From NCBI GenBank assembly GCA_000002445.1, contig AE017150.2, positions 800,001-864,000 on the forward strand: 64,000 nucleotides of DNA, written 5' to 3'. The notes under the pieces were generated by a model that was not told where the DNA came from, searched no databases, and was given only the letters and a program-made list of their open reading frames with translations. This document shows positions 6,803-64,000 of this stretch, in pieces. Numbering within the stretch: the first letter of the stretch is position 1; each line of letters opens with the position of its first letter. The translations under genes were made by a program, and so were the position numbers. This DNA comes from Trypanosoma brucei. Lineage: Eukaryota.

Positions 6803-7577
6803 CTTCGAGATTGTGTTTTTTTCTTGTAATTCCCCTTCACACCTCCTCTCTATGTTTATGAAAATTCCAATTTGTCAACAAAAAAGGAAGCGGAACCATT
6901 AAGCAGCACAGCAAGCACCAGCACACAGTAACTATTAGTGTGACAGCAGCGGGACAACAACATATGAGTAACAATTTCGCAACAGACAGCGAATGCAGGC
7001 TCGCAAATAATTGACACGTCGGGCGCCACGACCATTATTCTGCACTTCCCCTCATGCACTCAAGCACATGGTTAGTGGGATATAAGAGCCAAAACACGAA
7101 ATAAAAAAACGGAAAAACGTCTACCTTCAACAACATCCCTCCTCAGCACGCAGCTTAACAATCACAAAGGGGAAGGGAGGAAAGAGAGAGAGAAAGAAAG
7201 AAAGAGATGAACCTGAACAACGTCGCACGAATAAAGAGAAGCCTATGTCTAACTTAATCTTCCCACTTCACCCCTCCCATTAACACCATTTTCTTGCTTG
7301 TGCCCCACCCGTTTTTCAGTTTCTTTATTTGATCTTTAAACATCAATCGGTGTGCGCCACGACTTGCCTGTCACACAACTGTGTGCACGCCACTGTGAAA
7401 GAGAAACCACGGTGGCGGTGCAGCGCCATCCAACAACAACAAAGAAATATTCAACAAGTCATGCAAAAACATCCCCGAACAATCCTCGGTATGAAAAATA
7501 AGACAAAACAAACGTAGGGGCAGATACAGAGATAAATAAAGAAAGGACAGGGGATGGGGATGGTAAAAGGATCCCAC

Positions 7578-7907
7578 TCAATCGCGTTTCCGCTTGGCTC
7601 CAGCTAACTTCTCCCGAGTTGCGCTCTCAAAGTTTGCTGGTTGTGCCTTATCTTCGCTGACGTTATCCTTCAGAACGGAGACAGCCACAACATATTCACC
7701 ACGTAGTAAAATCATGCCTAATTTACGTTGTGGGCTGATACCTGCATCTTTCATCTTTTTTGTCTCTTTACGAGTCTCCACCGTGTCAGCCAACACAACA
7801 TTCATGAACTTATCAAAGAGGAGCATCTTCCCCGTCATCTCTCTGCCGTCCACAAGTGTTACCCGCAGCGTGCGGTTGATGTTGTGAAGCATATTTTGGT
7901 GGCCCAT
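7578..7907 (-). CDS. SmB: Sm core protein SmB (Sm fold)
   Basis: The 109-aa protein carries the Sm1/Sm2 pattern RVTLVDGREMTGKMLLFDKFMNVVLADTVE...RKLGMILLRGEYVV. It has the SmB-like layout with a Lys-rich insert between Sm1 and Sm2 and a short C-terminal tail. Confidence 0.8.
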   Translation of the reverse strand: MGHQNMLHNINRTLRVTLVDGREMTGKMLLFDKFMNVVLADTVETRKETKKMKDAGISPQRKLGMILLRGEYVVAVSVLKDNVSEDKAQPANFESATREKLAGAKRKRD

Positions 7908-8635
7908 CGCTAGTGAAAGCGCCTTTCTCCCTTTTTTAGTACTTAGTTATCTGTGTCAATCCCAATTGTTAACAACTTTAGTCCCCAGTTGTGTATATTC
8001 CTCCGCTAACGAAGCTGGAAGATATGGCAAGATCCTTGAAGGAACAGGAAAGAAGAAACTTGAAGTTCTTTCGTTTTCTGCTGTAGGGTGTGAGCGGCGG
8101 GGGGGTCTGCCTTCCTTTTTTTTTCCTTGTTTTACTTTACTTTCTCTAAACCAAATGAATAGAGTGAGTACGGCATTTGCAAAACCAATAGAAGAGAAAA
8201 AATAAAGGGAAAGAAAAGAAAAAAGAAGCAATAATCGAAGCAAATTAAAATAATTTTCATTAGTTGAGTGGGTACAGTTGTGAACGACGATTTCGGAGGA
8301 AATCAAAGATTAGAGATGTTGAATGGGGACTCCTCTCTTTTTTTCTTTTTGTTTCGCTCCTTTTTCCACCTCTCTCCGGGTAATCCTTATCGGGTCACCA
8401 CTATTAGTGTTCAGTTTGCACTTTAAAAAAAAATGTTCCCTCAGTTTCTTTTCTTAACTTTAACTCGGTTACTTCGTTCACCTTTCCCTTAAAGCAGTGC
8501 TAATACATCACACAACTGCACACTCCCTTAAAAGGTTTAAACGTACGGGACAAAAAGCGTTTGTTCAACTCAGAGGTTGGTACATTATATCATACCCCTC
8601 CAACTATTAACAAAACGAGCCACTACACAACGACA

Positions 8636-16390: not shown

Positions 16391-18320
16391 ATCAAATAGG
16401 TTTTAAGCAGCAATAAAACGGTATAAGTATAATAAGTGTGACAAAACTAATCACAGCACACCCACAATAAAATCGAAAAGAAACTCAGGATTTGGAGGGA
16501 AATAATGAAATAAAAATGAAGGACAGAACAAAAAAAAAGGAGTGCAATAAAAATATCCAGACAGAATTTTTTTGTTCCTCTTTATATTTCTTCAAGTTAC
16601 TCCCTTCCTTCTTTGTTACCTTTTTCTCAAGAATGAGAAATAGGAATACTTTTTGCGTTTAGTTTCGTGTTATTATGGTTGGGTTCCCTGTTGTTGTTTT
16701 TGTTGTTTTCGTCCGTGATGTAGAACTTGATTATTATCTTCTTTTTTTTTCTTTTTACCTTGGCAAACGGTAAATAACAAAACGAAACAATCACCTAAAC
16801 AACTGCGAACAGAAAAGAAAAGAGGGCACAAATTAATGGAAATTAAGTAGAAAGCGCCACCTCCCTATTCACGTGCTGCTTCAATGTTCCGCGTCACGCC
16901 GTGGTTGATTTCTTCCTTTTTCTTTTGGTTTCTTTTCCGCTTGAGTATTATTTTTCTTTTTTGTGATAACAACAACACTCTTTCCTTTCCCTTCCCACTT
17001 TCTTGTCTTTTTTTTAAAATCTGTTTTTTTTGTGTGTGTGCTAGTTCGCTTCCTTTCTGTTCGTTATTTTGGTATACTTCTATTAAACAAAAGCAAAAAC
17101 AAAATAATTGGAAAGAAAGTGAGGAGGTGCGGATAAATGAGCGGATGTAAAAAATATTCAAGAAACGGATATATATATATATATTTATTTATTTATTCAT
17201 TCATTCATCAATATGCCACCAACTGACATAAACAGTTGGAAACGTGATAATACGAAATTTTATTTTAAAAAAACTTTTTTTCGTCTTCAAACAATAGAGA
17301 CGGATTCAAATTAAACACACACAGCAAAGGGGGGCGAGAGAAATAGAAGGTTGGGAAAAGATCACAAGAAAGAAATAAAAAAGGACACGAGGCGCGCCAC
17401 AACAAATTTCCTTCCATCTCTCCCAAACAACAAAAACAAAAAAGGTGGAAATTAAAGTGGAATAATAAAGTAAAACGGAATGGAGAAAACACATGAACGG
17501 AAAGCCTACGTGCGCACAGTACAGTTGTGCGAAAAAAACAACATAACAAACATATAAACCTATAAATAAAGATTTATTTCTGCTGTTATTGCTTTTATAT
17601 TTTTTCCTCCTTCTTTCTCCCATTCATCCCTTCCTTTTCCTCCTCCTCCTCCTAAGCCATAAACGCTATTTAACAAAAATGGAGAAAGAAGAACAAGCAA
17701 AAACACAAAAGAAAAAAAAAGTAATAAGAAAAGAGACAAACAACACAAACTTCATCACCAACAAGAGCAAATCACAAAAAGGAAAAAGAAAATCAATTGC
17801 CCTGTCTCTTGTAGTTTTGTCACTTGCCCTTCTCCCTGTATTTTATTCGAATATACTCATCCTTCCCTTCTTATATACATATACATATTTCTCATTCCTC
17901 CTGTCAGAAAAATCCGCAAATTTTAAGACAAAAAGTAGAGAAAAGTAACCGTAAAAACGTATATGTTGATTAATCAATCATTAACCTATATTTAAATACA
18001 GATATATGCTTCAAGACCTTTTCAAAGCCACCAAAGGTAAACAAAAGGTCATTATATAAAAAAAGAACGGAAGCGACACCAAGGGAGGAAAAGCACTCCA
18101 TGAATTATTTAAATAAATGTAAGTAGAGACAAAAAAGATCGTCAAGCTTCCTACCACAACTTTTTACAAAAAAGATACAACAATAGAGGATCCCCGACCA
18201 TTTCTATTTTATCTCCAGTGTGCAATTACCCCGCCCCTTTTCATTCCCTTGTAAATGTGACCAAGCCTAAAATACCCACAAGTGCATTTCCTTCCGTAAC
18301 CACTTATTGTCTCCCGTTGC

Positions 18321-19538
18321 TTAAGAAGTGGTACCAACAATGCGTGACCACTCATGTTCCACATCACCATATTGAATATCTGTAATCGCCTTTAGAACCC
18401 GATGTGTGAGCGAAGCCCCTGGAGCCGGGCATGGAACATTAAGCAACTCTCCCTTATATGACAGTGCTTCCACAGGGGACACAATAGCAGCCGTCCCACA
18501 GCCAAAGCACTCAAGCACACGTTTCTCCCGTAGCGCAGCAGTGAGCTCGTGAATGGTAAAGGAGCGTTCAGATACACGTGCCTCACCCCACTGCCGCACC
18601 AGCGACAAAATGGAATCTCGCGTCACACCGGGGAGGATCGTGCCATCCAACGGCGCAGTTACAAGTTCCACTTCATTTGAATTTGCAGAAGGACGCCAAA
18701 GACACATGAAATTCATTGCTCCCACTTCTTGCACTTCTTCTCCAGCGCCCAGCCATAACACTTGCTGAAAGCCAAGCTCAGACGCTTCCCGCTGCACCAG
18801 CATAGGCGCAGCGTAGTTCGCGCCAAGCTTCACGTTGCCGACCCCACCAGGCCAGGCACGGCGCCGCTCCTCCTCCACATGAAGTCTCACAGGTTTCATC
18901 CCAGAGGGATAATATGGTCCAACAGGTGAAGCAATCACGAATAACTTCGCTGCAGAACCTGCCACTGCGGAGAGTGTGCTTCCAGTCCCAATTACAGTGG
19001 GTCTCAAGTATAGAGAGTAACCACGCTCACTTGGGACGTAATCACGTTCCACTTTCACAAACTCCTCAATTAACTTTTGCAGTTCGTCAGGGTCAAATCC
19101 AGGGAGACATAAGCGTCGTGTGCTGTCCAGTAGCCGTCGACAGTTACGATCCGGGCGGAAGAGTCGGATATTGCCGTGACTGTCGCGATACGCCTTCATG
19201 CCCTCGAAGCATTGAATGGCATAATGTAAGCAAGCAGTCTGCGGCGGCAATGAAAGGTTCTCAAAGGGAACAATACGTGGTTTGCCCCATTTCCCATTCC
19301 CATCTGCATCAATTACCAACATATGTGGGCTGAAAAGAGTACCAAACATAACTCCCTGCAGTGAAGGAAGTGGCGGTGGATTTGCCACGCGTTGAACAGT
19401 GAGGTCCTTGGCGAGGAAAGTCATAATAAACTGTTGTATTTGCCTGTGGTTCCCAAATATCGAAGTTTCTTTTATCAATAAGTTGTTTATCACTGTCGTC
19501 TGTGTTAGGAATGATAATGATAATAGTAAAGTGAGCAA
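18321..19538 (-). CDS. BCAT: Branched-chain amino acid aminotransferase (class IV PLP aminotransferase), tandem copy 1
   Basis: The BCAT hallmarks are present: FGTLFSPHMLV, GKWGKPRIVPF, LHYAIQCFEGMKAYR, IRLFRPDRNCRRL, SLYLRPTVIGT, SPVGPYY. The first 38 codons upstream of an internal Met (MTFLAK) may be a targeting peptide or a 5' over-extension. Confidence 0.85.
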   Translation of the reverse strand: MLTLLLSLSFLTQTTVINNLLIKETSIFGNHRQIQQFIMTFLAKDLTVQRVANPPPLPSLQGVMFGTLFSPHMLVIDADGNGKWGKPRIVPFENLSLPPQTACLHYAIQCFEGMKAYRDSHGNIRLFRPDRNCRRLLDSTRRLCLPGFDPDELQKLIEEFVKVERDYVPSERGYSLYLRPTVIGTGSTLSAVAGSAAKLFVIASPVGPYYPSGMKPVRLHVEEERRRAWPGGVGNVKLGANYAAPMLVQREASELGFQQVLWLGAGEEVQEVGAMNFMCLWRPSANSNEVELVTAPLDGTILPGVTRDSILSLVRQWGEARVSERSFTIHELTAALREKRVLECFGCGTAAIVSPVEALSYKGELLNVPCPAPGASLTHRVLKAITDIQYGDVEHEWSRIVGTTS

Positions 19539-20159
19539 AATAATGAAAGGTTATCATACAACGGTGCACACAAAACAACATGGGTGACGAACCACTGCAT
19601 AAAAACAAAACGACTTAACAAGGTAGTACTAACAAAATAAAAGAAGGACGCCACTAGCAAAAACGTACGCACAGATACTATACACTGCAGTACGGGCAGT
19701 AATTTTGTTAACGATATATCAGGCAATGTGTAACTGTATAATTTTACATGTGGAGTGTAGAGGTGGTAACGGTCGTACTTGCTTCGTTTCAGCATTTAAC
19801 AATGAAATACAATAAAACCAAGCAGCACAACCGGACTTTGCTGAACGGGAACACAAACATATTATACGAGAAAGTACGCACCACATATACTAGCAGGATA
19901 GCTTGTATGGTATCCAAATGAGTTTGCGATATGGCAAAAATTAAAAATAAAATCCGTATCAGAAACAAAAAAATAGATCAACTTAATGGTTGTGAGTAAC
20001 ATGAATTGCCATTCACAGAAACGTTTTTCAAGTCACTTCAATCCAGAATCTAGTTCGTTTTCTTTTACTTCACAATGTTTCATTCCCTTGTAAATGTGAC
20101 GAAGCCTAAAATACCCACAAGCGCATTTCCTTCCGTAACCACTTATTGTCTCCCGTTGC

Positions 20160-21377
20160 TTAAGAAGTGGTACCAACAATGCGTGACCACTCATGTTCCA
20201 CATCACCATATTGAATATCTGTAATCGCCTTTAGAACCCGATGTGTGAGCGAAGCCCCTGGAGCCGGGCATGGAACATTAAGCAACTCTCCCTTATATGA
20301 CAGTGCTTCCACAGGGGACACAATAGCAGCCGTCCCACAGCCAAAGCACTCAAGCACACGTTTCTCCCGTAGCGCAGCAGTGAGCTCGTGAATGGTAAAG
20401 GAGCGTTCAGATACACGTGCCTCACCCCACTGCCGCACCAGCGACAAAATGGAATCTCGCGTCACACCGGGGAGGATCGTGCCATCCAACGGCGCAGTTA
20501 CAAGTTCCACTTCATTTGAATTTGCAGAAGGACGCCAAAGACACATGAAATTCATTGCTCCCACTTCTTGCACTTCTTCTCCAGCGCCCAGCCATAACAC
20601 TTGCTGAAAGCCAAGCTCAGACGCTTCCTGCTGCACCAGCATAGGCGCAGCGTAGTTCGCGCCAAGCTTCACGTTGCCGACCCCACCAGGCCAGGCACGG
20701 CGCCGCTCCTCCTCCACATGAAGTCTCACAGGTTTCATCCCAGAGGGATAATATGGTCCAACAGGTGAAGCAATCACGAATAACTTCGCTGCAGAACCTG
20801 CCACTGCGGAGAGTTTGCTTCCAGTCCCAATTACAGTGGGTCTCAAGTATAGAGAGTAACCACGCTCACTTGGGACGTAATCACGTTCCACTTTCACAAA
20901 CTCCTCAATTAACTTTTGCAGTTCGTCAGGGTCAAATCCAGGGAGACATAAGCGTCGTGTGCTGTCCAGTAGCCGTCGACAGTTACGATCCGGGCGGAAG
21001 AGTCGGATATTGCCGTGACTGTCGCGATACGCCTTCATGCCCTCGAAGCATTGAATGGCATAATGTAAGCAAGCAGTCTGCGGCGGCAATGAAAGGTTCT
21101 CAAAGGGAACAATACGTGGTTTGCCCCATTTCCCATTCCCATCTGCATCAATTACCAACATATGTGGGCTGAAAAGAGTACCAAACATAACTCCCTGCAG
21201 TGAAGGAAGTGGCGGTGGATTTGCCACGCGTTGAACAAAAATTTTTTTGGCGAGGAAAGTCATAATAAACTGTTGTATTTGCCTGTGGTTCCCAAATATC
21301 GAAGTTTCTTTTATCAATAAGTTGTTTATCACTGTCGTCTGTGTTAGGAATGATAATGATAATAGTAAAGTGAGCAA
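20160..21377 (-). CDS. BCAT: Branched-chain amino acid aminotransferase, tandem copy 2
   Basis: This 405-aa ORF is near-identical to copy 1 (period 1839 bp) and differs at only a few residues (KKIFV vs KDLTV; GSKLSAV vs GSTLSAV; VQQE vs VQRE). Confidence 0.85.
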   Translation of the reverse strand: MLTLLLSLSFLTQTTVINNLLIKETSIFGNHRQIQQFIMTFLAKKIFVQRVANPPPLPSLQGVMFGTLFSPHMLVIDADGNGKWGKPRIVPFENLSLPPQTACLHYAIQCFEGMKAYRDSHGNIRLFRPDRNCRRLLDSTRRLCLPGFDPDELQKLIEEFVKVERDYVPSERGYSLYLRPTVIGTGSKLSAVAGSAAKLFVIASPVGPYYPSGMKPVRLHVEEERRRAWPGGVGNVKLGANYAAPMLVQQEASELGFQQVLWLGAGEEVQEVGAMNFMCLWRPSANSNEVELVTAPLDGTILPGVTRDSILSLVRQWGEARVSERSFTIHELTAALREKRVLECFGCGTAAIVSPVEALSYKGELLNVPCPAPGASLTHRVLKAITDIQYGDVEHEWSRIVGTTS

Positions 21378-38136: not shown

Positions 38137-40413
38137 TCAACATCGTGGACCAAGGGCAATAAGGAAAGGTTTTCCCTCCGGGTCCGCCTGGTCCGCAACC
38201 TCATGTCGTTTCCGCAACCAAAACAACTGCATAAGCCGCAATTTGAGCATATGCAGTCTATTGGACTCATGCACGACTGCGATTTCATTGTACTCCCCGT
38301 GCTTGCGGTGAAGCTCCCGCTGCGAGTACCGCGAAATCACGTAATCTATGCCTTCAGAGTTGTACAAGTCATTAGTTTCGTCAAATCGTATTTCTTCCTT
38401 AATGTATTGCATCTCCAGCCCGCGTCTCTGAAGCAATATCGAAAGACTGAAGGCATCTGATACCTCTGTGCGGCTGCTATCGCCACCACTAACAACAGCG
38501 GGGGATGGCACATTGCCCGTCCCAAACAATTCTTCATCATGAAGCCCAGTGTCGCCAACAACTATTGATCGTCCGACACTCATTAGCGCGCGGAAAGGAA
38601 ATGTCAAAAGTTTAACAAAGCGATCCGACACCTGCTGTGAAGCGCCAGCGGTTGCAAATGTGCTATTTGTGGGGTTCCGCCTCTGTATTTTATGCACCTT
38701 CTGGAAGCGGCTGATTCCAGTCATTGCTGCATAGGCGTCAATGAAGACAGAAATAGAGTTGCTCCTGTTCGTTCTTGTGGTTAGGCGCCGACTTAGGCAC
38801 GAGGACGAGTTCCTAACATCTTTTTCTACAGCGTGGTGAAGACGTCGTAGAGCCTCGGACCCCGGGTAATTATCAGCGCTCAAGTACACAGAAAGCAAAA
38901 CGGTCGCGAGCTGCACAGTGTACAAGAGGACTATCAAAGATGCGATGACAGAGCGCCGGGTTAAGCAAGCAAGAAACCACCTCGGCCTGACATTAAAACC
39001 ACCCTTCCCATCTCCTCTGCTGCGCAGGTTTGCACCCTCATTCCTCCACTTTACTAGCGTAGCACGCCCCTGTACAATTCCCTTTCCTTTTGTCACCTCC
39101 AATGTGCAAGATGACAGTGGCCGCGCGAAACACTCGTCCCATAGGCGTGTACCAGCCGCCGCTAGGGGCACCAGCAACCAGGGAAACACAATCATCAAAA
39201 ACCGAACTTCCTTGTGGGGAAGCAAACTGTACAATACGATGAAGAGACTTGACGGTACCAATAAGTCAGCGTACCGCTCGCTGGTGTCCAGAAACACCCA
39301 AAGCGCACAGTGGGCTGCAGCAGGTGATGGTTCTTCACTAGTTGTTCCTTCTCTTCTGCCCGCGCCCGACAACCTATGCAATGCAAAATATATGTTCCCC
39401 CACCCCATGCACACTAAAGTAAGCCACAATGGATACAGAAAGAGCAAGCTGCGCGGCAGTGCCACCAGCACGTACCAATATACGGGCAGCCTTCCCCACC
39501 TCCACGATTGATTCTCTGCGGTGTTAAACAGGAGAACCACGGCTTCCGGCCACACCAACCTCCCCCACAAGTAGCTATCCATCCCAATACTGAAGATAAC
39601 GACAGCAGCCACCGAACAGATGCCCGCCGCGACGCCACGCAGCAACGTGATGTCACCTCTCAACAACAAGAATAAAGAGTAAGGTGCCAGCAAGACCAGA
39701 ACATCACATCGAAACAACGCTGAGGTAGCGCTGAGCAGTGCAATTGCCCAATAGTATTTGCCACGGCAAGTAGCACCACATGCTAGAGTACACATTATAA
39801 GTCCGTACGTGTTGGGCAACGGCCGCGTTGCATAAAATACCAAATGAAATTGCGACAGGCACAACAAGTAAAACACACTCGAAACATGCCGCATACTGAC
39901 AGGGCACCTGGCTGCGGCAACACGTGAAGATGTGCTCTTGAATTTTTCCCATTTCGCAGCGCTGTCAATACCACAACCAACATAACCGAGAGCACAGCAG
40001 GTGACGACGCCCAAGGTCACCCGACACATGTTAGAAGCAAGCATTGGAAACAACGCAAACAACTCCTCAGAAGAACCCACAAGACCAACATCCTCCACCA
40101 GTCGAACAAACCATGCAACATCTCCCGCAACAACATACTTCAATGGTTCCAATAGGAACCTTACGACATAATTCACATCACAGAGAAACGGCAACATCGC
40201 CAACGACGCAACAAACCAAGGTCCAGTAAACGTTCGAGGAACCACCCCAGGCGAGCTTAAATGGTCAAAACATGCTCTTTTACCACAAAGCAAAAAATCA
40301 TGCATCGCCTGCATACCGAAGCTCTCCTCCACTTTCGTATAAGGGCAAACTATTTCAACAGAAATGACACAAGCCAACAAAAATAAAAAACTAAAAAACG
40401 ATAAAACAGTCAT
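38137..40413 (-). CDS. ALG12: Dol-P-Man-dependent alpha-1,6-mannosyltransferase of the ALG12 type (GT22 family), carrying a ~270-aa C-terminal extension
   Basis: The N-terminus CPYTKVEESFGMQAMHDFL...FDHLSSPGVVPRTFTGP matches the GT22/ALG12 signature (PYTKVEESFNLQATHD...FPGVVPRTF). About ten hydrophobic helices follow over ~470 aa, and the remaining ~270 aa are hydrophilic. Confidence 0.75.
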   Translation of the reverse strand: MTVLSFFSFLFLLACVISVEIVCPYTKVEESFGMQAMHDFLLCGKRACFDHLSSPGVVPRTFTGPWFVASLAMLPFLCDVNYVVRFLLEPLKYVVAGDVAWFVRLVEDVGLVGSSEELFALFPMLASNMCRVTLGVVTCCALGYVGCGIDSAAKWEKFKSTSSRVAAARCPVSMRHVSSVFYLLCLSQFHLVFYATRPLPNTYGLIMCTLACGATCRGKYYWAIALLSATSALFRCDVLVLLAPYSLFLLLRGDITLLRGVAAGICSVAAVVIFSIGMDSYLWGRLVWPEAVVLLFNTAENQSWRWGRLPVYWYVLVALPRSLLFLYPLWLTLVCMGWGNIYFALHRLSGAGRREGTTSEEPSPAAAHCALWVFLDTSERYADLLVPSSLFIVLYSLLPHKEVRFLMIVFPWLLVPLAAAGTRLWDECFARPLSSCTLEVTKGKGIVQGRATLVKWRNEGANLRSRGDGKGGFNVRPRWFLACLTRRSVIASLIVLLYTVQLATVLLSVYLSADNYPGSEALRRLHHAVEKDVRNSSSCLSRRLTTRTNRSNSISVFIDAYAAMTGISRFQKVHKIQRRNPTNSTFATAGASQQVSDRFVKLLTFPFRALMSVGRSIVVGDTGLHDEELFGTGNVPSPAVVSGGDSSRTEVSDAFSLSILLQRRGLEMQYIKEEIRFDETNDLYNSEGIDYVISRYSQRELHRKHGEYNEIAVVHESNRLHMLKLRLMQLFWLRKRHEVADQADPEGKPFLIALGPRC

Positions 40414-40507
40414 TTACAGATAAGACTACGTGAAAAGGAAAAGAAAAAAAATAGAAATTTAAAAACTGCACTCACTCACAGAGAATATACATTACACGTC
40501 ACAAGCA

Positions 40508-40880
40508 TTCAAATACAGCACAAAAATAAGGTTGACAACGAGCTTCCGGTGCACACACCAACCCGTAAACGAATAACAAAGCACATCAAAAACACAAAAC
40601 TACCAAGACAATCGATAAGGTAACTGTATGCCACGCCAACCAGTTGCAGCGCAATGCTCATACTGGCAAACGTGGCACACGCTGCGCCAAGGCTCACAGT
40701 ATCAACAGTGATGTAATCGACAGAGCGTTACCAAATACATCACCACGACAGGACATAGCACACTACGGAACCTGCAACATTACGATATAGCTGCAAAACA
40801 AAACAACAGGAAAAACAATTACTGTATATCCACAACACCGGTCACAGCTGCGCCCCATCACGCGTCCAGTACACCTCCCC
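40508..40880. repeat. Copy A of an exact ~370-bp direct repeat (copy B is at 63630-64000). It contains the last ~12 codons of the uL11 gene plus ~335 bp of its 3' flank
   Basis: Identical 62-aa ORFs appear at 40509..40697 and 63632..63820 in the track. Direct comparison shows base-for-base identity from ttcaaatacagcacaaaaataagg through ...cgcgtccagtacacctc. Confidence 0.9.
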
Positions 40881-41870
40881 ACTCATTGCAGCCTCGTCCA
40901 TCTGCTTCCGCTTCTCACCTTCAGGGAGTCGGTAATTCATAAAAACAATACGCATCTCCTCTGGCGTCATGTCCTTCACCCAACCTCGTGCATTCAAGTA
41001 ACGTCGAGCAAGTTCCCGCTCCCTCAAATCACGATGATAAGGGCTCAGTGGGTGGCTCGCTCTCCACAGGGTATCCAGTAAACAGGGGTCACGCAAACCC
41101 TCCTCAATCTGTTCATCCGTCAGTGGTGACATATTGGGCCGGTGCAACCGCTCAATCAGTGGTGCCTCTTCAAGTTCACGCTGCCTCAACGTAGTATATT
41201 GTTCCATGTGTATACGCCTGTACCTTTCGCATTCCTCCGTGTACTGCTGCTCAGTCATATCTTTCACGGGGGAACTGTAAGGTGTATCTACGCCAATGAA
41301 ACAAACACCCATCCGCCTGGCTTGCCCAACAACGCGTCGTACACGGGTCTCCAGTAACGGGTACTCTGGACGTCCCCAACACAACGGTTTCATTTTCGCT
41401 ATTTCGTATGCCATCTCCAATGTCATCAGAGCACAGTAGTGCCCTCGCAGCGGCACAGGTCCCGTCTCCCGCCGCTTCTTCCGAAGTGCACGCAGAATGA
41501 ACCACGCAGTAGGTGGCGGTTCAATTGTAAAAAGATACGATTTGTCAAAGTACACTTGGATGCGAACAATCAGCTCGACATCTTCCTTGAAGTGTGGCTT
41601 CGTCCGGTCATTGAACACCTTCGCAAAATCCATCGCCTTCAGCCCAAGTTTCGAAAACTCTTGTCCCACGGGAGGACCCGTCGCCGCCTTCCCAGCCTTA
41701 ATAAAGAAACGCCAGTTGTGCAATACACGCTTCCCAGGAAATTCAGGTCGCCCAAATATATCCCTCGCCTTCTCAACCACCAAAGCTTCAGGCAGTCGGT
41801 TTGAACCAGGTTCTACACACACCGTCTTGGGCCGTGCCCTTAGTTGAAGGACGCCACACGCGCGGAGCAT
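40842..41870 (-). CDS. Mitochondrial ribosomal protein uL11 with a long C-terminal extension
   Basis: The uL11 N-terminal domain motif AGKAATGPPVGQEFSKLGLKAMDFAKVFNDRTK...VELIVRIQVYFDKSYLFTIEPPP is present. The 342 aa length is far above the ~140-aa bacterial uL11, as is usual for kinetoplastid mitoribosomal proteins. Confidence 0.75.
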   Translation of the reverse strand: MLRACGVLQLRARPKTVCVEPGSNRLPEALVVEKARDIFGRPEFPGKRVLHNWRFFIKAGKAATGPPVGQEFSKLGLKAMDFAKVFNDRTKPHFKEDVELIVRIQVYFDKSYLFTIEPPPTAWFILRALRKKRRETGPVPLRGHYCALMTLEMAYEIAKMKPLCWGRPEYPLLETRVRRVVGQARRMGVCFIGVDTPYSSPVKDMTEQQYTEECERYRRIHMEQYTTLRQRELEEAPLIERLHRPNMSPLTDEQIEEGLRDPCLLDTLWRASHPLSPYHRDLRERELARRYLNARGWVKDMTPEEMRIVFMNYRLPEGEKRKQMDEAAMSGEVYWTRDGAQL

Positions 41871-42412
41871 CAGTCAACTGTCACTAAATGGCTTACACAC
41901 AATTACTAGTTGTAAGTCCTTATATACAGTTGCGTACCAGAAGAGAAGAGGGAAGAGATAGTAACAGCAAGCATCCAAAGAAATGGGCGAGACGGTATAC
42001 AGGAAACATGTGTATGCATGTAGGCAGTAAGTAGAGCCCGTGCAGCAAGCAAAGGAAATGGTGAAACAGCACAATTACCGTATAGTGAAGAGAAGCTTCA
42101 GAAACACAAATACAACAAAATGTAAAGGGAAGGGAAGGAATAATACTGAGACCACACACACACGCACACAGAAAGAGAGAGAGAGAGAGACGTACAGACA
42201 AACAAGGAGAAAAAACTCCTCACGATGATTCACATTCCAACACGCGGCATACGACAGTTCCTACCGCAACCGCGTCGCGCCATATTAACGCACACACTCA
42301 CTCCATAAATGAATCAAATGTTCAGCACCCGCATCGATCACATCCTAAGCAATGCATTACTCAGTGCATGGCCAAGGGGAGAGTGCACATCCCAACAAGC
42401 TATAATAGCATC

Positions 42413-43393
42413 CTACTCAATTATACCACACAGAAACGACAAGAATAACAGGATACAACAAACAGGAAACGGCACCTTGTACAGAAGGAACACACTCAAT
42501 AGTGAGTACATCTCCCTCCCAGAATCAGGTGCAATAACATTCGTCATTCTGCTTGCCTCGCCGACAGCTGCTTCATACCCATTACTGCACCGACCGCTAG
42601 GAACAGTACCTGAAGCACAGTTAACAGGAGAATAAACCAATGGAGAAGCCGAAGCAGCAGTCTGATCCCCAGCACCCTTTGGGGAGTGACGGCTCCTCAA
42701 CGCTGTCGAAGGTGGAGACACCTCTCCTCCAGCATTCCTTACAGCTGAACCTAACTGTGGCTGTGCTGCCGGAGCTTTCTCCACAGCCGCAGTCTCACAA
42801 CCTTCCACAAGTCCTTCCACCTTTCCATGACTTCGCTTCATCACAAGGCTATCCGGAACACCCAACTCCCCATAAATACAGCGAAGTGCACACCGAACAG
42901 CATTCCGCTCCCTCGCCTGCACACGTCCACGTTGCTTCCAAAATGCAGCAGCGACGTCCGGACCGCTAGGGCCCTTGCTACTACAGTCACCTCCAAAGAA
43001 ACCACTCACAGACTCATACGGTGCCATAACTTCCCTCGGCACCACACATATATCCACGAACACCTCATCCCTTGTGCCAGCGTCTGGCAACTCCACAGCT
43101 CCTTCCTCCACGCCACCACGCCTCGCTGCGAGACGACGGAGCCTACGGATGTCAAGCATAAACTTCACCCTCACACATTCACCAGCAAATATCAGTCCAA
43201 CAGATGGTTGAACACCATAGCGATTGCGTACAGCACTGAGAACTTTGAACGCCACAACATTCTCACAAGGGTCCTCAGTACGTACAAGTAGACTACTTAA
43301 CTCGATAATATTCTCAATACTGGCATCCGTCAGAGGAGAAGGAAAGTACAGGCACTCCTGTGAAAAACAAACAATGCCCCCACCACCCTTCAT
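42413..43393 (-). CDS. Hypothetical protein (326 aa)
   Basis: Complete co-oriented ORF. No confident motif recognised. Confidence 0.5.
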   Translation of the reverse strand: MKGGGGIVCFSQECLYFPSPLTDASIENIIELSSLLVRTEDPCENVVAFKVLSAVRNRYGVQPSVGLIFAGECVRVKFMLDIRRLRRLAARRGGVEEGAVELPDAGTRDEVFVDICVVPREVMAPYESVSGFFGGDCSSKGPSGPDVAAAFWKQRGRVQARERNAVRCALRCIYGELGVPDSLVMKRSHGKVEGLVEGCETAAVEKAPAAQPQLGSAVRNAGGEVSPPSTALRSRHSPKGAGDQTAASASPLVYSPVNCASGTVPSGRCSNGYEAAVGEASRMTNVIAPDSGREMYSLLSVFLLYKVPFPVCCILLFLSFLCGIIE

Positions 43394-43893
43394 CGTGGAT
43401 GAAAGATACGAAACACTAATTACTCACCCGTAAGAAAGGACAGATACGAAATAGAGAAGAAAAACATAAACACATTCCCGGGAAGTAATGACAGTCACAG
43501 ATACAACAAGTATGAAAAAGAAGATATTACACCAATAATAAAATAGCAAAACACCAACCTCTAATACGGTCGAATAAATATAAACATATAACATGTCCGC
43601 TACGCAACAATTAAGCGAAACAAAAAACAATGAAAGGATAGAAAAAATACAGCGCAAACTTCGTTGGGTTGTCAAACAATTCAAAAACACAGATTATGTG
43701 GTTGCCCACAGCGCCAACAAATCATATAACCATGCCAAATAACGAGCTGAAAGCACTCCCCACTACGGTGTCATCCTCATGGTCATACCAATAAAGTAAA
43801 ATACAGAGCAAAAAAATGATCATACATACCATTCGAACGTATCATAGTACAATGAAAGAGTGACAAACATTTATGCAGCCACGCAACTCAACA

Positions 43894-44082
43894 TTACAAC
43901 ATATATATACAAACAGTATTAGGCATGGAGAAATACTCCTTCACATTAACAATCACGCGTCCATCATCACCATCAGCAGCAGTCACATGCAGCGAACACA
44001 CGGCAGTTAGCAATAATAAAATACCGCACAGGAGAGCAGCACGCGTAAAACCAAAATTCACCATACGGGTGTCCATGCTCAT
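43894..44082 (-). pseudogene. Truncated duplicate of the 5' end of the surface glycoprotein gene at 44902..45999. It keeps the signal peptide plus ~17 further residues and then diverges to a stop
   Basis: The first 53 aa (MSMDTRMVNFGFTRAALLCGILLLLTAVCSLHVTAADGDDGRVIVNVKEYFSM) are identical to the full gene. Nucleotide identity extends ~230 bp into the 5' flank (43900-44310 vs 45820-46230). Downstream the reading frame decays into AT-rich non-coding sequence. Confidence 0.55.
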
Positions 44083-44901
44083 TGTCAGTGTTGCTTCCTT
44101 ATGACTTTATCAAATACACACATATGCGGGAAAGAGGGAAGAGCGTGTGAGTAAAGGGGAAATGCAACAGTGACAATAGAAAAAGGAGTTACACAAGATA
44201 TCAAATAATCACACATACACTCGAGGATAATAAACAAGAAATATGAAAAGGATAACACAAATAATAATGGAAGAGAGCAGCCATATCACATATCCCAACA
44301 AATTGGTTAGTGAGACACAGGTACTCAAAACATTTATTATCATAATGGGCCAAGTATAACTCAGGGATTGAACACTATGGAACTCTCATTTAATACAACC
44401 TCATATAGATTGTTAAAATAATTAAGTGCTGCAAGTTACACGTATAGCAATACATCACACGTAACAGGGAGGACCTACAAGCCTCCCACATATACATGGA
44501 AGTAAAACATGAAATAACGCGAACTAAACATGACACCCACACACGAAATAAATAATCAACACCAACAACAACGAAACAATGGGACATCAAACAGTAAAGA
44601 TGGTTCAATGGGTCACACACTAAAAGAGCAATGATGTGGTCGGAGGGAAGTGATGCCACACATCGGAAGTCCCTCGCAGAGCCAACATGGTACAAGGAGA
44701 TCGTTAATATTAGGAACATAAAAGTAATAATTACATAAGAGAGTATTGAGCACTACTGAAAGTAATAATAGGAAGTGAAACAATACACGAAGCTAGAAAT
44801 TTTGACGGTCCGTAACGTAGGATGAAAGCGGCACAGTATTCATTACTCCACTTGATCCTAAACATCACTCAACCACCACCCATGTGATACACGATGTGAC
44901 G

Positions 44902-45999
44902 CTAATACGATTGACCGGTCATCATTTGGTTATAATATTGCAGGGCTAAGGGAGGAGCAGCAAAACCCTCTGGGGGAACAAAAGGTGTTGGCTCCAGGAC
45001 AAACAACGGCTCTCCAACAACTTCACGCAGCGTCATGGGAATGATCTCCTTTTTAACATTATAATCACAGAACCAACGTAAAAGGAAAAGCAGCAACACA
45101 ATGAGGGAAACAACAGAAATTAGAGCTATAAGAATAATGAGCAAATCAATCCTCTCTTCCAATGACACAGTTGTCACAGTAACTTCTTCATCCTTTGTCA
45201 CAGTTGGTTCCGGTACTTCGCCAGAGGCAGGTGCAGTTGTAGTTGTAGTGGTAGTTGTTGTGGTTGTCGTCGTGCTGATAGAATCATGGACCTCGCAAAC
45301 AACAACGTAGTCTTGAGACTTTGTTTCAAAGTTCTGACTTGTCCAACGAATAGTCCCAGAAGCCTCCCTGCCATCATACCAGGTAGTCACATCATCATCT
45401 TCATGGTACCATGAAAGGGTATACAACTGACCATGCTTGGGATATTCACTACCCCAAAAGGATGGGTAACCATTCATTGGAGCCGCAAAAGCGTATTTGA
45501 CATATGAACCACGCCAGAACGCCACCCCGTGACCATCAGGCAAAGCCTTTGCAAACAATCCCTTATTCCAACGATACACACAATGACGTGAAGATGCCGC
45601 GTCTCCAGGCTTACAACGCTTATCAGCCACAATGGCCCCGCCACTACTGTACACAGCATCTCCACCAAGGTAGCTGAAAGCATCCGAACCCGTTAACACA
45701 TCTTTCATTGCATCCTGCAAACTTTGGTGTGCCGCCTCCGTTTGATCGGCAGGAAGCACAGCGCCATTGTCGCGGCAATATGCTTCAGCATTGTTGTAAC
45801 TAACAAAGTACTTCCCATGACGACTAAATGCAAAATTGTCCATAGAGAAATACTCCTTCACATTAACAATCACGCGTCCATCATCACCATCAGCAGCAGT
45901 CACATGCAGCGAACACACGGCAGTTAGCAATAATAAAATACCGCACAGGAGAGCAGCACGCGTAAAACCAAAATTCACCATACGGGTGTCCATGCTCAT
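44902..45999 (-). CDS. Type-I membrane glycoprotein. It has a signal peptide, an ectodomain with a possible C-type-lectin-like fold, a poly-Thr (T13) stalk, one TM helix and a short cytoplasmic tail
   Basis: The N-terminal hydrophobic signal is AALLCGILLLLTAV and the cysteine spacing is consistent with a CTLD (YCRDNGAVLP...; ...YVVVCEV). TTTTTTTTTTTTT is encoded at ~45225-45280, and a TM segment LLIILIALISVVSLIVLLLFLL precedes the tail RWFCDYNVKKE. The CTLD assignment is tentative. Confidence 0.6.
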   Translation of the reverse strand: MSMDTRMVNFGFTRAALLCGILLLLTAVCSLHVTAADGDDGRVIVNVKEYFSMDNFAFSRHGKYFVSYNNAEAYCRDNGAVLPADQTEAAHQSLQDAMKDVLTGSDAFSYLGGDAVYSSGGAIVADKRCKPGDAASSRHCVYRWNKGLFAKALPDGHGVAFWRGSYVKYAFAAPMNGYPSFWGSEYPKHGQLYTLSWYHEDDDVTTWYDGREASGTIRWTSQNFETKSQDYVVVCEVHDSISTTTTTTTTTTTTTAPASGEVPEPTVTKDEEVTVTTVSLEERIDLLIILIALISVVSLIVLLLFLLRWFCDYNVKKEIIPMTLREVVGEPLFVLEPTPFVPPEGFAAPPLALQYYNQMMTGQSY

Positions 46000-47103
46000 T
46001 GTCAGTGTTGTTTCCTTATGACTTTATCAAATACACACATATGCGGGAAAGAGGGAAGAGCGTGTGAGTAAAGGGGAAATGCAACAGTGACAATAGAAAA
46101 AGGAGTTACACAAGATATCAAATAATCACACATACACTCGAGGATAATAAACAAGAAATATGAAAAGGATAACACAAATAATAATGGAAGAGAGCAGCCA
46201 TATCACATATCCCAACAAATTGGTTAGTGAGGCACAGGTACACGTCGTATTTGATACAATAGTGGAGAAACTAAAGCAGAAAGAATATACATTATTCAAC
46301 TCTTGTTTGGTACAACCCTACTGTGCGAGGTCACCCGGAGCATTCGAGAGTGATGAAAACCAAATCCTCGCCTATTCATTATCCACGTTAGTTGAGGGGC
46401 GGAAGTGCTGCGTACATCAACGCGCGGTAAGAAGCGAGTGAAAACCGACTTACATTTGTCGCGACCTTCTTCAGGTGACGTCCGTAGGTGTGCCTGATCA
46501 GGATACGGCCATCTAGTATGAGAAGTAACCGGCGACGCCGATCTATCCGAACAAATACTACAACAAACAGCATAGACACGGAAGCGGAGTGGGAAAGCAT
46601 CACCAGCTCAGTTGTACTCAGTGTGCCAATAGGGTGGTTTTTTTTCTGCTATAAAAAAAGAACTTGAAGCATAAAGAAACGATGGTCCGCCTCCAGCTGC
46701 GTACCGGCGCACAGCGGAACCCCCATTGAATTTAAAACATCGTGCAGGTGGAGGTGCGGCAAGTTTACTCCCTCCCTTCCCTTCATTGTCTTCTTGGGTA
46801 CCTCGCGCATGTCCCAACAAACCACACAATCTCCAACCCGAGGACAACCGATAACGGGCATACGCTTTGTCTCCCCGCAAAGTCTCCAAGCGCGCACGTA
46901 TTCACATCACTATCGCAGCCTGTCATATTGCATACAAGTCGCTGTGGCCTTGCGAAAAAAAGCTCCCAGCTAGCGTAAACTAAACTCTCTCCAAGCACCA
47001 GGAGACAGAGTTGCAAATGCACACCACCACTCAGTCCCAACCTCGCTTCTTCGATCTGTTCATCTGTCAACACCAGCTCTCCCAAGTCCGTTCATCCATT
47101 GTG

Positions 47104-62653: not shown

Positions 62654-63562
62654 TCACGCAACACCCAAATCACGCTGGTATTTCTTCAACTGCTGCCGGA
62701 ATCCCGCATTTGGGGAGGCAACAGGCCGTTTACGCTGGATAAGTGCGATTACACTGTCCGCTGGCATACGCAACTTTCTAATAAGATATGCGGCAGCAAT
62801 TGTTGGAGCACGGGATATACCGGCCCCGCAATGTACAAGCACAGAGGAGCATTGCCCCACAATCGCTGACTCAATAAAGTTATACGTCTTCTCGAAAAAA
62901 ATTGAAATGTTGTAATTAGGTGCATCCTGCGCAGGGACCGTCATGTATTTGAAATCATTGGGGAATCGTGGAAGTACATCAATACAACAAAGTATATGCG
63001 TCACTCCTCGCTGCTGCAGAAGAATTTTGTTTGACGCTGGGTGATAGGAACCAATAAATAAACCTGGCACAACCTCATGCATGCTCTGCACTTGGTACAT
63101 GTTGCCCTGCAGGAAGAGCGGTTGTTCAGCACCAGGGGAGAGCGGAATTTTTGTACCACACTCCCATAGCGCATTCACTTCAGCAGCCCTATCCGCATAG
63201 GCCTCTAGCATAACATTCCGAAGATCTGAACGCGTGCTTTCTACTAAATCCAACTGCACAGGTACGTTAGTGACAGCCATACGATATCGCTCTAATGCCT
63301 GGTCGACAGTGGATGATAAAAGAGCATTAGAGGAATCCAATGCGCCCTTTTTCGCAGCCATTGAACGTTCTTCACCCACACTAATATTGCAACTAACAGA
63401 TGGCACGGCTTCTGAAGAACTGTGTTGCGAAATAAAGCGTATAACCGCAAAAACCTTTTCAACATCAACCATCGAAACCCCGAATCCCTTTCCAAGCTCA
63501 GGAGACGTTCCGGACACCCCCGGTCGCTGGCGGTTCATTGCAGATGCACCCCGTCTCACCAT
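62654..63562 (-). CDS. Dual-specificity protein phosphatase
   Basis: The catalytic signature VLVHCGAGISRAPTIAAAYLI (HCxxGxxR P-loop) is present, with an upstream general-acid region (ILCCIDVLPRFPNDFKYMTVPAQDAP). Confidence 0.8.
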   Translation of the reverse strand: MVRRGASAMNRQRPGVSGTSPELGKGFGVSMVDVEKVFAVIRFISQHSSSEAVPSVSCNISVGEERSMAAKKGALDSSNALLSSTVDQALERYRMAVTNVPVQLDLVESTRSDLRNVMLEAYADRAAEVNALWECGTKIPLSPGAEQPLFLQGNMYQVQSMHEVVPGLFIGSYHPASNKILLQQRGVTHILCCIDVLPRFPNDFKYMTVPAQDAPNYNISIFFEKTYNFIESAIVGQCSSVLVHCGAGISRAPTIAAAYLIRKLRMPADSVIALIQRKRPVASPNAGFRQQLKKYQRDLGVA

Positions 63563-63629
63563 ACTTAAACTGATAAAAAAACAGCCTTAACTACAAAAGG
63601 GATATGCCTAAAAAAAACCTAAATAAAAG

Positions 63630-64000
63630 ATTCAAATACAGCACAAAAATAAGGTTGACAACGAGCTTCCGGTGCACACACCAACCCGTAAACGAATAAC
63701 AAAGCACATCAAAAACACAAAACTACCAAGACAATCGATAAGGTAACTGTATGCCACGCCAACCAGTTGCAGCGCAATGCTCATACTGGCAAACGTGGCA
63801 CACGCTGCGCCAAGGCTCACAGTATCAACAGTGATGTAATCGACAGAGCGTTACCAAATACATCACCACGACAGGACATAGCACACTACGGAACCTGCAA
63901 CATTACGATATAGCTGCAAAACAAAACAACAGGAAAAACAATTACTGTATATCCACAACACCGGTCACAGCTGCGCCCCATCACGCGTCCAGTACACCTC
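63630..64000. repeat. Copy B of the ~370-bp direct repeat, running to the window edge. It ends inside a sequence identical to the uL11 C-terminal codons (VYWTRDGAQL*)
   Basis: Same evidence as copy A. The repeat may continue beyond coordinate 64000. Confidence 0.9.

What the first reader, a model, noticed from the sequence alone, without database searches (positions are those of the whole stretch)
40508..40880. Exact 370-bp direct repeat carrying the 3' end of the uL11 gene, with its second copy 23 kb away at the window edge
The sequence 40508-40880 (the last ~12 codons of the mitochondrial uL11 gene plus ~335 bp of 3' flank) recurs base-for-base at 63630-64000, immediately upstream of the dual-specificity phosphatase gene and running off the window end. 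Because the second copy ends inside sequence identical to the uL11 C-terminal codons (…EVYWTRDGAQL*), a second uL11-like gene, or a larger duplicated block, very likely begins just beyond coordinate 64000. Direct repeats of this length in one polycistron are substrates for homologous recombination, which could delete or amplify the intervening ~23 kb. The shared 3' flank would also give both genes the same 3' UTR regulatory sequence.
Basis: seen in the sequence. Interest (0 to 1): 0.5.

Follow-up and report, generated by a model that had tools for sequence, protein, structure and literature searches.

The report
Edge of a three-gene segmental duplication
The exact 371-bp repeat is the visible end of an already-annotated 5.9-kb, three-gene duplication on Trypanosoma brucei chromosome 2, whose two copies, each carrying a mitochondrial ribosomal protein uL11 gene, are kept almost identical by recombination between them.

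Summary
Window 40507-40877 equals 63630-64000 base for base: 371 nt, direct, 23,123 bp apart.

The repeat holds the last 11 codons plus stop of the uL11m gene (40842-41870, minus strand; identical to PDB 6HIV chain AK) and 335 nt of 3' flank.

The window is T. b. brucei TREU927 chromosome 2. The repeat is only the downstream end of a 5,898-bp block (40507-46404) containing IGP40, an IGP40 5' remnant, a 326-aa MSP-like gene and uL11m. The second copy lies mostly beyond 64000. Two other T. brucei-group assemblies show it in full. TREU927 has two identical uL11m GenBank proteins (AAQ15932.1, AAQ15947.1).

Synteny suggests the two uL11m positions are old. One lies before the phosphatase gene and one before ALG12. 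T. cruzi has both, 96% identical. T. vivax and T. theileri keep one copy plus a remnant. Leishmania has only the phosphatase-side copy.

Within a genome the copies are near-identical and share strain-specific variants, which indicates concerted evolution by gene conversion.

This is ordinary trypanosome genome biology and already annotated. Interest is low.

The parts
40507..40877 (-). Copy A of the exact 371-nt repeat: 335 nt of uL11m 3' flank plus the stop codon and last 11 codons.
   Evidence: 371/371 identical to 63630-64000.
63630..64000 (-). Copy B of the repeat, cut by the window end. It is the downstream tip of block B, which would span about 63630-69527 in window-equivalent coordinates.
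   Evidence: The extension is seen in L001/L002/L008.
40507..46404 (-). The full duplicated block, copy A (5,898 bp): IGP40, IGP40 5' remnant, 326-aa MSP-like gene, uL11m and its 3' flank.
   Evidence: blastn of L001/L002/L008 against the window. Both boundaries are sharp.
40842..41870 (-). uL11m gene, copy A (342 aa).
   Evidence: 100% identical to PDB 6hiv_AK. Pfam PF03946 and PF00298.
42413..43393 (-). 326-aa conserved hypothetical gene with a weak MSP (major sperm protein) domain match; equals AAQ15933.1.
   Evidence: T. cruzi and T. theileri relatives carry PF00635.
43924..44324 (-). 401-bp remnant of an IGP40 5' end, a copy of 45841-46241. It is present in both blocks and also in both T. 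vivax loci.
   Evidence: (family D9).
44902..45999 (-). IGP40-subfamily invariant glycoprotein gene (365 aa, DUF5075). This is the most diverged part of the block.
   Evidence: Pfam PF16825. The published IGP40 primer matches it. A versus B is 90.7% at the amino-acid level, and nucleotide mismatches cluster here.
40414..40506 (-). Unique 93-nt spacer after block A: a pyrimidine-rich tract upstream of the ALG12 ATG, the presumed trans-splicing signal.
   Evidence: The function is inferred.
63563..63629 (-). Unique 67-nt spacer after block B: a pyrimidine-rich tract upstream of the phosphatase ATG.
   Evidence: The function is inferred.
38137..40413 (-). ALG12-type mannosyltransferase (GT22, 758 aa), the gene downstream of copy A.
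62654..63562 (-). Dual-specificity phosphatase (302 aa), the gene downstream of copy B.

Best explanation
The 371-bp repeat is the downstream end of a 5.9-kb direct segmental duplication inside one polycistronic transcription unit of T. brucei chromosome 2.

Each copy is a self-contained cassette. It starts about 400 nt upstream of the IGP40 ATG, so it includes that gene's pyrimidine tract. It runs through the IGP40 remnant, the 326-aa MSP-like gene and uL11m. It stops at the end of the uL11m 3' flank, exactly where the pyrimidine tract of the next gene begins (ALG12 for copy A, the phosphatase for copy B).

The genome therefore carries two identical uL11m genes with the same 3' flank.

Having uL11m at both positions appears ancestral to the genus Trypanosoma. 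The copies stay nearly identical because non-reciprocal recombination (gene conversion) between them keeps homogenising them. In the African-trypanosome lineage the homogenised tract was remodelled from GDSL lipase-p202-uL11m to IGP-MSP-uL11m.

Shown here: the repeat, the block, the second gene, the synteny, and the variant-sharing patterns. Inferred: gene conversion as the mechanism, the age of the duplication, doubled dosage, and identical 3' UTRs.
For: Repeat and block.

Second uL11m gene next to the phosphatase.

The window is TREU927, and TREU927 has paired accessions for uL11m and the 326-aa protein.

Synteny:
- T. cruzi has both loci on one contig, 96.0% identical over 3,497 bp and about 28.5 kb apart.
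- T. vivax has uL11m before ALG12. Before the phosphatase it has a decayed, internally deleted remnant: 97.7% identity up to nt 19 of the CDS, then 69.6% over 92 nt.
- T. theileri has uL11m before ALG12 and only a GDSL 5' remnant at the other site.
- Leishmania has uL11m before the phosphatase.

Concerted evolution:
- The uL11m CDS differs at 0-3 of 1,026 nt between paralogues in T. brucei and at 12 of 1,023 in T. cruzi. Third-position differences between species are 39-60%.
- In the 3.8 kb from 44300 to 40507, seven sites carry strain-specific alleles shared by both copies of IVM-t1 or of DAL972. Only three sites separate A from B, and all three lie in a microsatellite at 42166-42175.
- The window's own bases at 40773, 40699 and 40546 are shared by its copies A and B.
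- The 326-aa protein has V95/S138/I314 in both TREU927 copies and M95/R138/V314 in both copies of the other two strains.
Against: The DNA of copy B in TREU927 beyond 64000 could not be fetched. For that genome the evidence is the 371 bp in the window plus the deposited protein sequences.

The gene content of the block differs between T. cruzi (GDSL-p202-uL11m) and T. brucei/T. vivax (IGP-MSP-uL11m). At least one secondary re-copying event is therefore required, and part of the present identity could date from that event rather than from continuous conversion.

T. congolense and deeper outgroups could not be examined.

The IGP40 part of the block is only about 90% identical at the protein level, so homogenisation is not uniform.

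No conversion event was observed directly.
Confidence: 0.85

Rival explanations
1. Recent, lineage-specific duplication: the block was copied once, shortly before T. brucei strains diverged, and the copies are alike simply because they are young. No gene conversion is needed.
For: The copies are near-identical. The block's gene content differs from the T. cruzi block, so some copying did occur after the two lineages split.
Against: T. vivax has the same IGP remnant-MSP block at both positions, with a uL11m remnant at the phosphatase side. T. cruzi also has uL11m at both positions. Strain-specific variants are shared by both copies in three T. brucei-group strains. A single old copying event cannot produce that pattern without later exchange between the copies.
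Confidence: 0.1
2. Assembly artefact: one locus was placed twice, or reads from one copy were used to polish the other, which would create the exact identity.
For: Perfect identity over 371 bp. The copies cannot be separated by short reads: the short-read (Logan) contigs that carry these genes are only about 1.1-1.3 kb long.
Against: Both copies have different unique flanks in three independent assemblies of T. brucei-group strains. Copy-specific differences exist, namely the microsatellite sites and a diverged IGP40. The same two-locus synteny holds in T. cruzi on a single contig.
Confidence: 0.03
3. Mobile element: the repeat belongs to a retroposon or other dispersed repeat family that happens to sit at two places.
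For: The repeat has sharp boundaries.
Against: There are only two copies in 64 kb. The block consists of three ordinary cellular genes with conserved synteny. No transposon-type domain was found, and Rfam gives no match.
Confidence: 0.02

Closest known systems
Tandem and segmental gene duplications of T. brucei that evolve in concert (Jackson 2007, PMC1855330; Jackson et al. 2010, PMC2854126)
   Same: These are multi-gene repeat units inside polycistronic units. Copies are homogenised by gene conversion, variants are shared between copies within a strain, and UTRs and coding regions show different degrees of homogenisation.
   Different: Here there are two dispersed copies 23 kb apart with about eight unrelated genes between them, not a head-to-tail array. 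I found no paper that names this block.
IGP40 invariant glycoprotein family on chromosome 2 (Allison et al. 2014, PMC4497807)
   Same: The first gene of the block is an IGP40 member. The published IGP40 primer matches it exactly, and it has the DUF5075 domain. The family is known for lineage-specific expansions.
   Different: The paper treats the family as a whole. It does not describe these two IGP40 copies as parts of a duplicated cassette with uL11m.
uL11m of the T. brucei mitoribosome (PDB 6HIV/6HIX, 6YXX/6YXY)
   Same: The window protein is identical in sequence to 6hiv_AK.
   Different: The structures say nothing about gene copy number. Two loci encode the same chain.

Membership tests
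Segmental (dispersed, direct) duplication | Two copies in the same orientation with different unique flanking sequence. | tested here: met
   Copy A lies between the 940-aa gene and ALG12. Copy B lies between the GDSL lipase and the phosphatase. Both boundaries are sharp.
Segmental (dispersed, direct) duplication | Both copies present in independent assemblies, so not an artefact. | tested here: met
   DAL972 (L001, L015), T. b. equiperdum CM010673.1 (L008, L009), and the paired TREU927 accessions. Read depth is not testable here.
Segmental (dispersed, direct) duplication | Copy B present as DNA in the window's own genome beyond 64000. | not testable with these tools
   TREU927 DNA is not in the contig index. 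Only the 371 bp in the window and the deposited proteins AAQ15947.1 and AAQ15948.1 are available.
uL11m (mitochondrial large-subunit ribosomal protein uL11) | L11 N-terminal and RNA-binding domains. | tested here: met
   PF03946 at 54 bits and PF00298 at 32.1 bits, both above their cut-offs.
uL11m (mitochondrial large-subunit ribosomal protein uL11) | The protein is physically part of the mitoribosome. | tested here: met
   Identical to chain AK of 6HIV/6HIX, which the depositors named uL11m.
Concerted evolution by gene conversion | The duplication predates speciation, yet paralogues group by species. | tested here: met
   Two-locus synteny in T. cruzi, T. brucei and T. vivax (remnant). Paralogues differ at 0-12 nt, orthologues at 205-372 nt.
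Concerted evolution by gene conversion | Strain-specific variants shared by both copies. | tested here: met
Concerted evolution by gene conversion | Direct observation of a conversion tract arising. | not testable with these tools
   This needs pedigrees, experimental evolution or induced breaks.
Retroposon / dispersed repeat element (ingi, RIME, SIDER type) | Many copies, element-encoded proteins or a poly(A) tail, and target-site duplications. | tested here: not met
   Two copies only, cellular genes only, and no shared sequence outside the sharp boundaries.

The most novel reading that the evidence does not exclude
The two uL11m-bearing blocks are a dispersed duplication as old as the genus Trypanosoma. 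They have been kept near-identical across 23-28 kb of unrelated genes by gene conversion ever since. The homogenised tract has shifted its content between lineages (GDSL-p202-uL11m in T. cruzi, IGP-MSP-uL11m in African trypanosomes). One copy has been lost independently in T. vivax and T. theileri, where the orphaned remnant then diverged freely. That would make the locus a clean natural system for measuring ectopic gene-conversion rates and tract limits in a polycistronic genome.
Probability: 0.6. Interest if true: 0.35.

Novelty: already known. Interest (0 to 1): 0.18.

Why it matters
There are three practical consequences. First, uL11m, the 326-aa gene and IGP40 are two-copy genes in T. brucei, so knock-outs need both loci removed (four alleles), and short reads cannot tell the copies apart. 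Second, RNAi and tagging reagents hit both copies. Third, the 5.9-kb direct repeats are potential substrates for deletion or amplification of a 17-kb stretch of housekeeping genes.

As evolution, the locus is a tidy example of long-term concerted evolution of dispersed duplicates with differential loss. The phenomenon itself is well established in trypanosomes.

Tried and rejected
- Exact-protein look-up of the window's 326-aa protein found nothing. TREU927 DNA is not in the contig index, so copy B of the window's own genome could not be read as DNA.
- Literature searches for gene identifiers recalled from memory (Tb927.2.4740/4890), for uL11m together with Tb927.2, and for chromosome II duplications found no paper describing this block. 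I therefore do not quote those identifiers as fact.
- The chromosome II paper (El-Sayed 2003) is not held in the library.
- T. congolense proteins were found, but without contigs, so that species could not be placed.
- An Rfam scan of the shared 3' flank found nothing.
- No remnant of the T. cruzi p202 gene or of GDSL was found at the T. brucei copy-A site, and no uL11m remnant at the T. theileri phosphatase site.
- The mobile-element and mis-assembly readings were considered and rejected (see the rival explanations).

Full report
**Observation**

A direct comparison shows that window 40507-40877 and 63630-64000 are identical at all 371 positions. The match does not extend leftwards, because bases 40506 and 63629 differ. 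On the right it is cut by the end of the window. The repeat finder reports the same pair (family D7, spacing 23,123) and no other copy in the window.

**What the repeat contains**

All long ORFs of the window lie on the minus strand, as expected for a trypanosomatid polycistronic unit. The ORF at 40842-41870 (minus strand, 342 aa) is 100% identical over its full length to chain AK (uL11m) of the T. brucei mitoribosome structures 6HIV/6HIX. It has both Pfam L11 domains.

The repeat therefore holds the stop codon and last 11 codons (40842-40877) plus 335 nt of 3' flank (40507-40841). Copy B ends 67 nt upstream of the ATG of a dual-specificity phosphatase gene (62654-63562). Copy A ends 93 nt upstream of the ATG of an ALG12-type GT22 mannosyltransferase (38137-40413).

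**Source of the window**

The window's 326-aa protein, ALG12, phosducin-like protein and 940-aa protein match exactly, and in three cases only, GenBank proteins of T. b. brucei TREU927 (AAQ15933.1, AAQ15930.1, AAQ15943.1, AAQ15936.1). These lie on a 1,193,948-bp record. The window is therefore TREU927 chromosome 2.

**What lies beyond 64000**

Exact-protein look-ups returned the phosphatase locus of T. b. gambiense DAL972 (L001, FN554965.1) and of T. b. equiperdum (L002/L008, CM010673.1). In both, the phosphatase gene is directly preceded by a complete 342-aa uL11m gene. Upstream of that lie a 326-aa gene and a DUF5075 gene.

blastn shows that this stretch (L001 4035-9935) matches window 46404-40503 at about 97.8%. 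The 371 bp are thus the downstream tip of a 5,898-bp duplicated block. Copy A is window 40507-46404. Copy B would be about 63630-69527.

Both boundaries are sharp. The upstream boundary (46404) lies about 400 nt before the ATG of the first gene and includes its pyrimidine-rich tract. The downstream boundary falls exactly where the pyrimidine tract of the next gene starts.

For TREU927 itself the uL11m sequence is deposited twice (AAQ15932.1 and AAQ15947.1), and so is the 326-aa protein (AAQ15933.1 and AAQ15948.1, one residue apart). The second members of each pair are numbered next to the phosphatase AAQ15945.1.

**Content of the block**

In the direction of transcription the block contains:
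- An IGP40-subfamily invariant glycoprotein gene at 44902-45999. It has PF16825, and the published IGP40 qPCR primer matches it exactly.
- A 401-bp remnant of an IGP40 5' end at 43924-44324.
- A 326-aa gene with a weak MSP-domain match at 42413-43393.
- uL11m.

Within one assembly (CM010673.1) copies A and B are almost identical from about 44850 to 40507. They are clearly more diverged across the IGP40 gene, where the A and B proteins are 90.7% identical.

**Is it an artefact?**

Three independent assemblies of T. brucei-group strains contain both copies with different unique flanks. Copy-specific differences exist. T. cruzi shows the same two-locus layout on a single contig. Read depth could not be examined, but a mis-assembly is very unlikely.

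**Evolutionary context**

- T. cruzi contig PRFC01000136.1 carries DZR protein-GDSL lipase-p202-uL11m-phosphatase-thioredoxin-like-VKOR-NIF-WD40 (L019). About 28.5 kb downstream it carries kinase-MSP350-GDSL lipase-p202-uL11m-ALG12-RRM protein (L016). The GDSL-p202-uL11m blocks are 96.0% identical over 3,497 bp.
- T. vivax has IGP array-IGP remnant-MSP293-uL11m-ALG12 (L011). At the other site it has IGP array-IGP remnant-MSP293-phosphatase (L014). The two blocks are 95.9% identical over 2,453 bp, up to nucleotide 19 of the uL11m CDS. L014 then retains only a 92-nt fragment that is 69.6% identical to codons about 143-173 (blastn E 8.5e-7; tblastn 51% over 35 aa). This is a decayed, internally deleted pseudogene.
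- T. theileri has GDSL-p205-uL11m-ALG12. At the phosphatase site it has only the first 62 codons of a GDSL gene and no uL11m.
- Leishmania has uL11m-phosphatase.

The simplest reading is that uL11m stood at both positions in the common ancestor of these trypanosomes. The phosphatase-side position is the older one, because it is shared with Leishmania. One copy was later lost in T. vivax and in T. theileri.

**Concerted evolution**

Despite that age, the paralogous uL11m coding sequences differ at only 0-3 of 1,026 nt in T. brucei strains and at 12 of 1,023 nt in T. cruzi. Between species, 39-60% of third codon positions differ.

In T. cruzi the phosphatase-side copy of one strain is closer to the ALG12-side copy of another strain (5 differences) than to the phosphatase-side copy of that other strain (13 differences).

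In T. brucei I compared window 44300-40507 across six block sequences:
- Seven sites carry an allele specific to one strain but shared by its two copies.
- Nineteen sites separate TREU927 and OVI from the other strains irrespective of copy.
- Only three sites separate A from B, and all three lie in a CA/GA microsatellite (42166-42175).

The three TREU927-type bases that fall inside the 371 bp (40773, 40699, 40546) are present in both window copies. The 326-aa protein shows the same pattern: V95/S138/I314 in both TREU927 copies, M95/R138/V314 in both copies of DAL972 and IVM-t1, and G104 in both IVM-t1 copies.

These are the classical signatures of gene conversion between paralogues. The T. vivax remnant supplies a natural control. 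Where homology was broken by the deletion, the sequence has drifted to about 70% identity, while the adjacent intact block stays at 96-98%.

**Mechanism and consequences (inference)**

The block behaves as a cassette that carries its own RNA-processing context. It includes the upstream pyrimidine tract of its first gene and the full 3' flank of its last gene. It stops just before the next gene's splice-acceptor region.

In trypanosomes, polyadenylation of a gene is coupled to trans-splicing of the next gene and occurs roughly 100-150 nt upstream of it (established knowledge, not tested here). Both uL11m mRNAs should therefore end inside the shared 335 nt and have essentially the same 3' UTR.

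Two identical genes in a promoter-less polycistron should double the template dose. T. vivax, T. theileri and Leishmania manage with one copy, so two copies are evidently not required.

The 5.9-kb direct repeats could also mediate deletion or amplification of the 17-kb interval. No assembly examined shows this. The spacing is 23.1 kb in TREU927, about 23.3 kb in IVM-t1, and 26.9 kb in DAL972, where the excess comes from an extra partial copy inside block A.

How IGP-MSP came to replace p202 upstream of uL11m at the phosphatase site in African trypanosomes is not resolved. It requires at least one long A-to-B copying event anchored in uL11m.

**Comparison with what is known**

Concerted evolution of duplicated genes in T. 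brucei, and segmental duplications containing several genes, are well documented (PMC1855330, PMC2854126). The IGP40 family and its lineage-specific expansions are described in PMC4497807. uL11m is part of the solved mitoribosome.

I found no paper that discusses this particular block or its history. Both gene copies are annotated in the reference genomes, however. The feature is therefore already known, and its behaviour is a further instance of a known kind.

**Verdict**

The feature is an ordinary, annotated segmental duplication seen at its edge. The one moderately interesting aspect is the apparent antiquity of the two-locus arrangement together with ongoing homogenisation and differential loss.

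Noticed in passing
window 18239-21377: Two tandem 405-aa class IV aminotransferase genes (18321-19538 and 20160-21377, minus strand). The repeat period is 1,839 bp, and the first 300 nt compared are 99% identical.
   Followed up: partly
window 43924-44324 and 45841-46241: A 401-bp copy of the IGP40 5' end (upstream region plus first codons) sits between IGP40 and the 326-aa gene. It looks like the stump of a lost tandem IGP40 copy. The same stump is present in block B, and in both T. vivax loci (L011 7767-8226, L014 4919-5365), so it is old.
   Followed up: partly
L015 4473-7937 (DAL972 copy A): The DAL972 assembly has an extra 3.5-kb piece inside block A. It repeats the 3' part of the 940-aa gene plus the IGP40 5' region, and yields a 733-aa 'LOW QUALITY PROTEIN' (CBH09533.1). 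It could be a real tandem duplication or an assembly problem.
   Followed up: no
L007 (T. equiperdum OVI, CZPT02000654.1) 7547-7947: In this assembly the 1,917-bp interval between the two 401-bp IGP40 5' repeats, which contains the IGP40 gene itself, is missing. This is either a collapse of the repeat in the assembly or a real deletion by recombination between the 401-bp repeats.
   Followed up: no
window 42124-42283: A CA/GA microsatellite lies in the spacer between the 326-aa gene and uL11m. It holds almost all the differences that distinguish copy A from copy B, including a 10-bp indel seen only in copy A of two strains.
   Followed up: partly
L011 367-7206 and L014 1133-5473 (T. vivax): T. 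vivax carries tandem arrays of 449-451-aa DUF5075 (IGP) genes upstream of both blocks. Units within one array match the other locus with identical scores, while the two arrays are only about 85% identical to each other. L014 reaches its contig end inside the array.
   Followed up: no
L001 8569-9597 and L015 10001-11029 (DAL972): The two DAL972 uL11m copies differ from each other at 3 nt, and all three changes are non-synonymous. TREU927 and IVM-t1 have no differences at all. These may be draft-sequence errors or real relaxed constraint on one copy.
   Followed up: no
one search hit list: No Leishmania, Crithidia or Leptomonas relative of the ALG12-type mannosyltransferase appeared at E <= 1e-40, although Bodo saltans did. 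This fits loss of this gene in the Leishmaniinae, and it means the ALG12-side position cannot be scored there.
   Followed up: no
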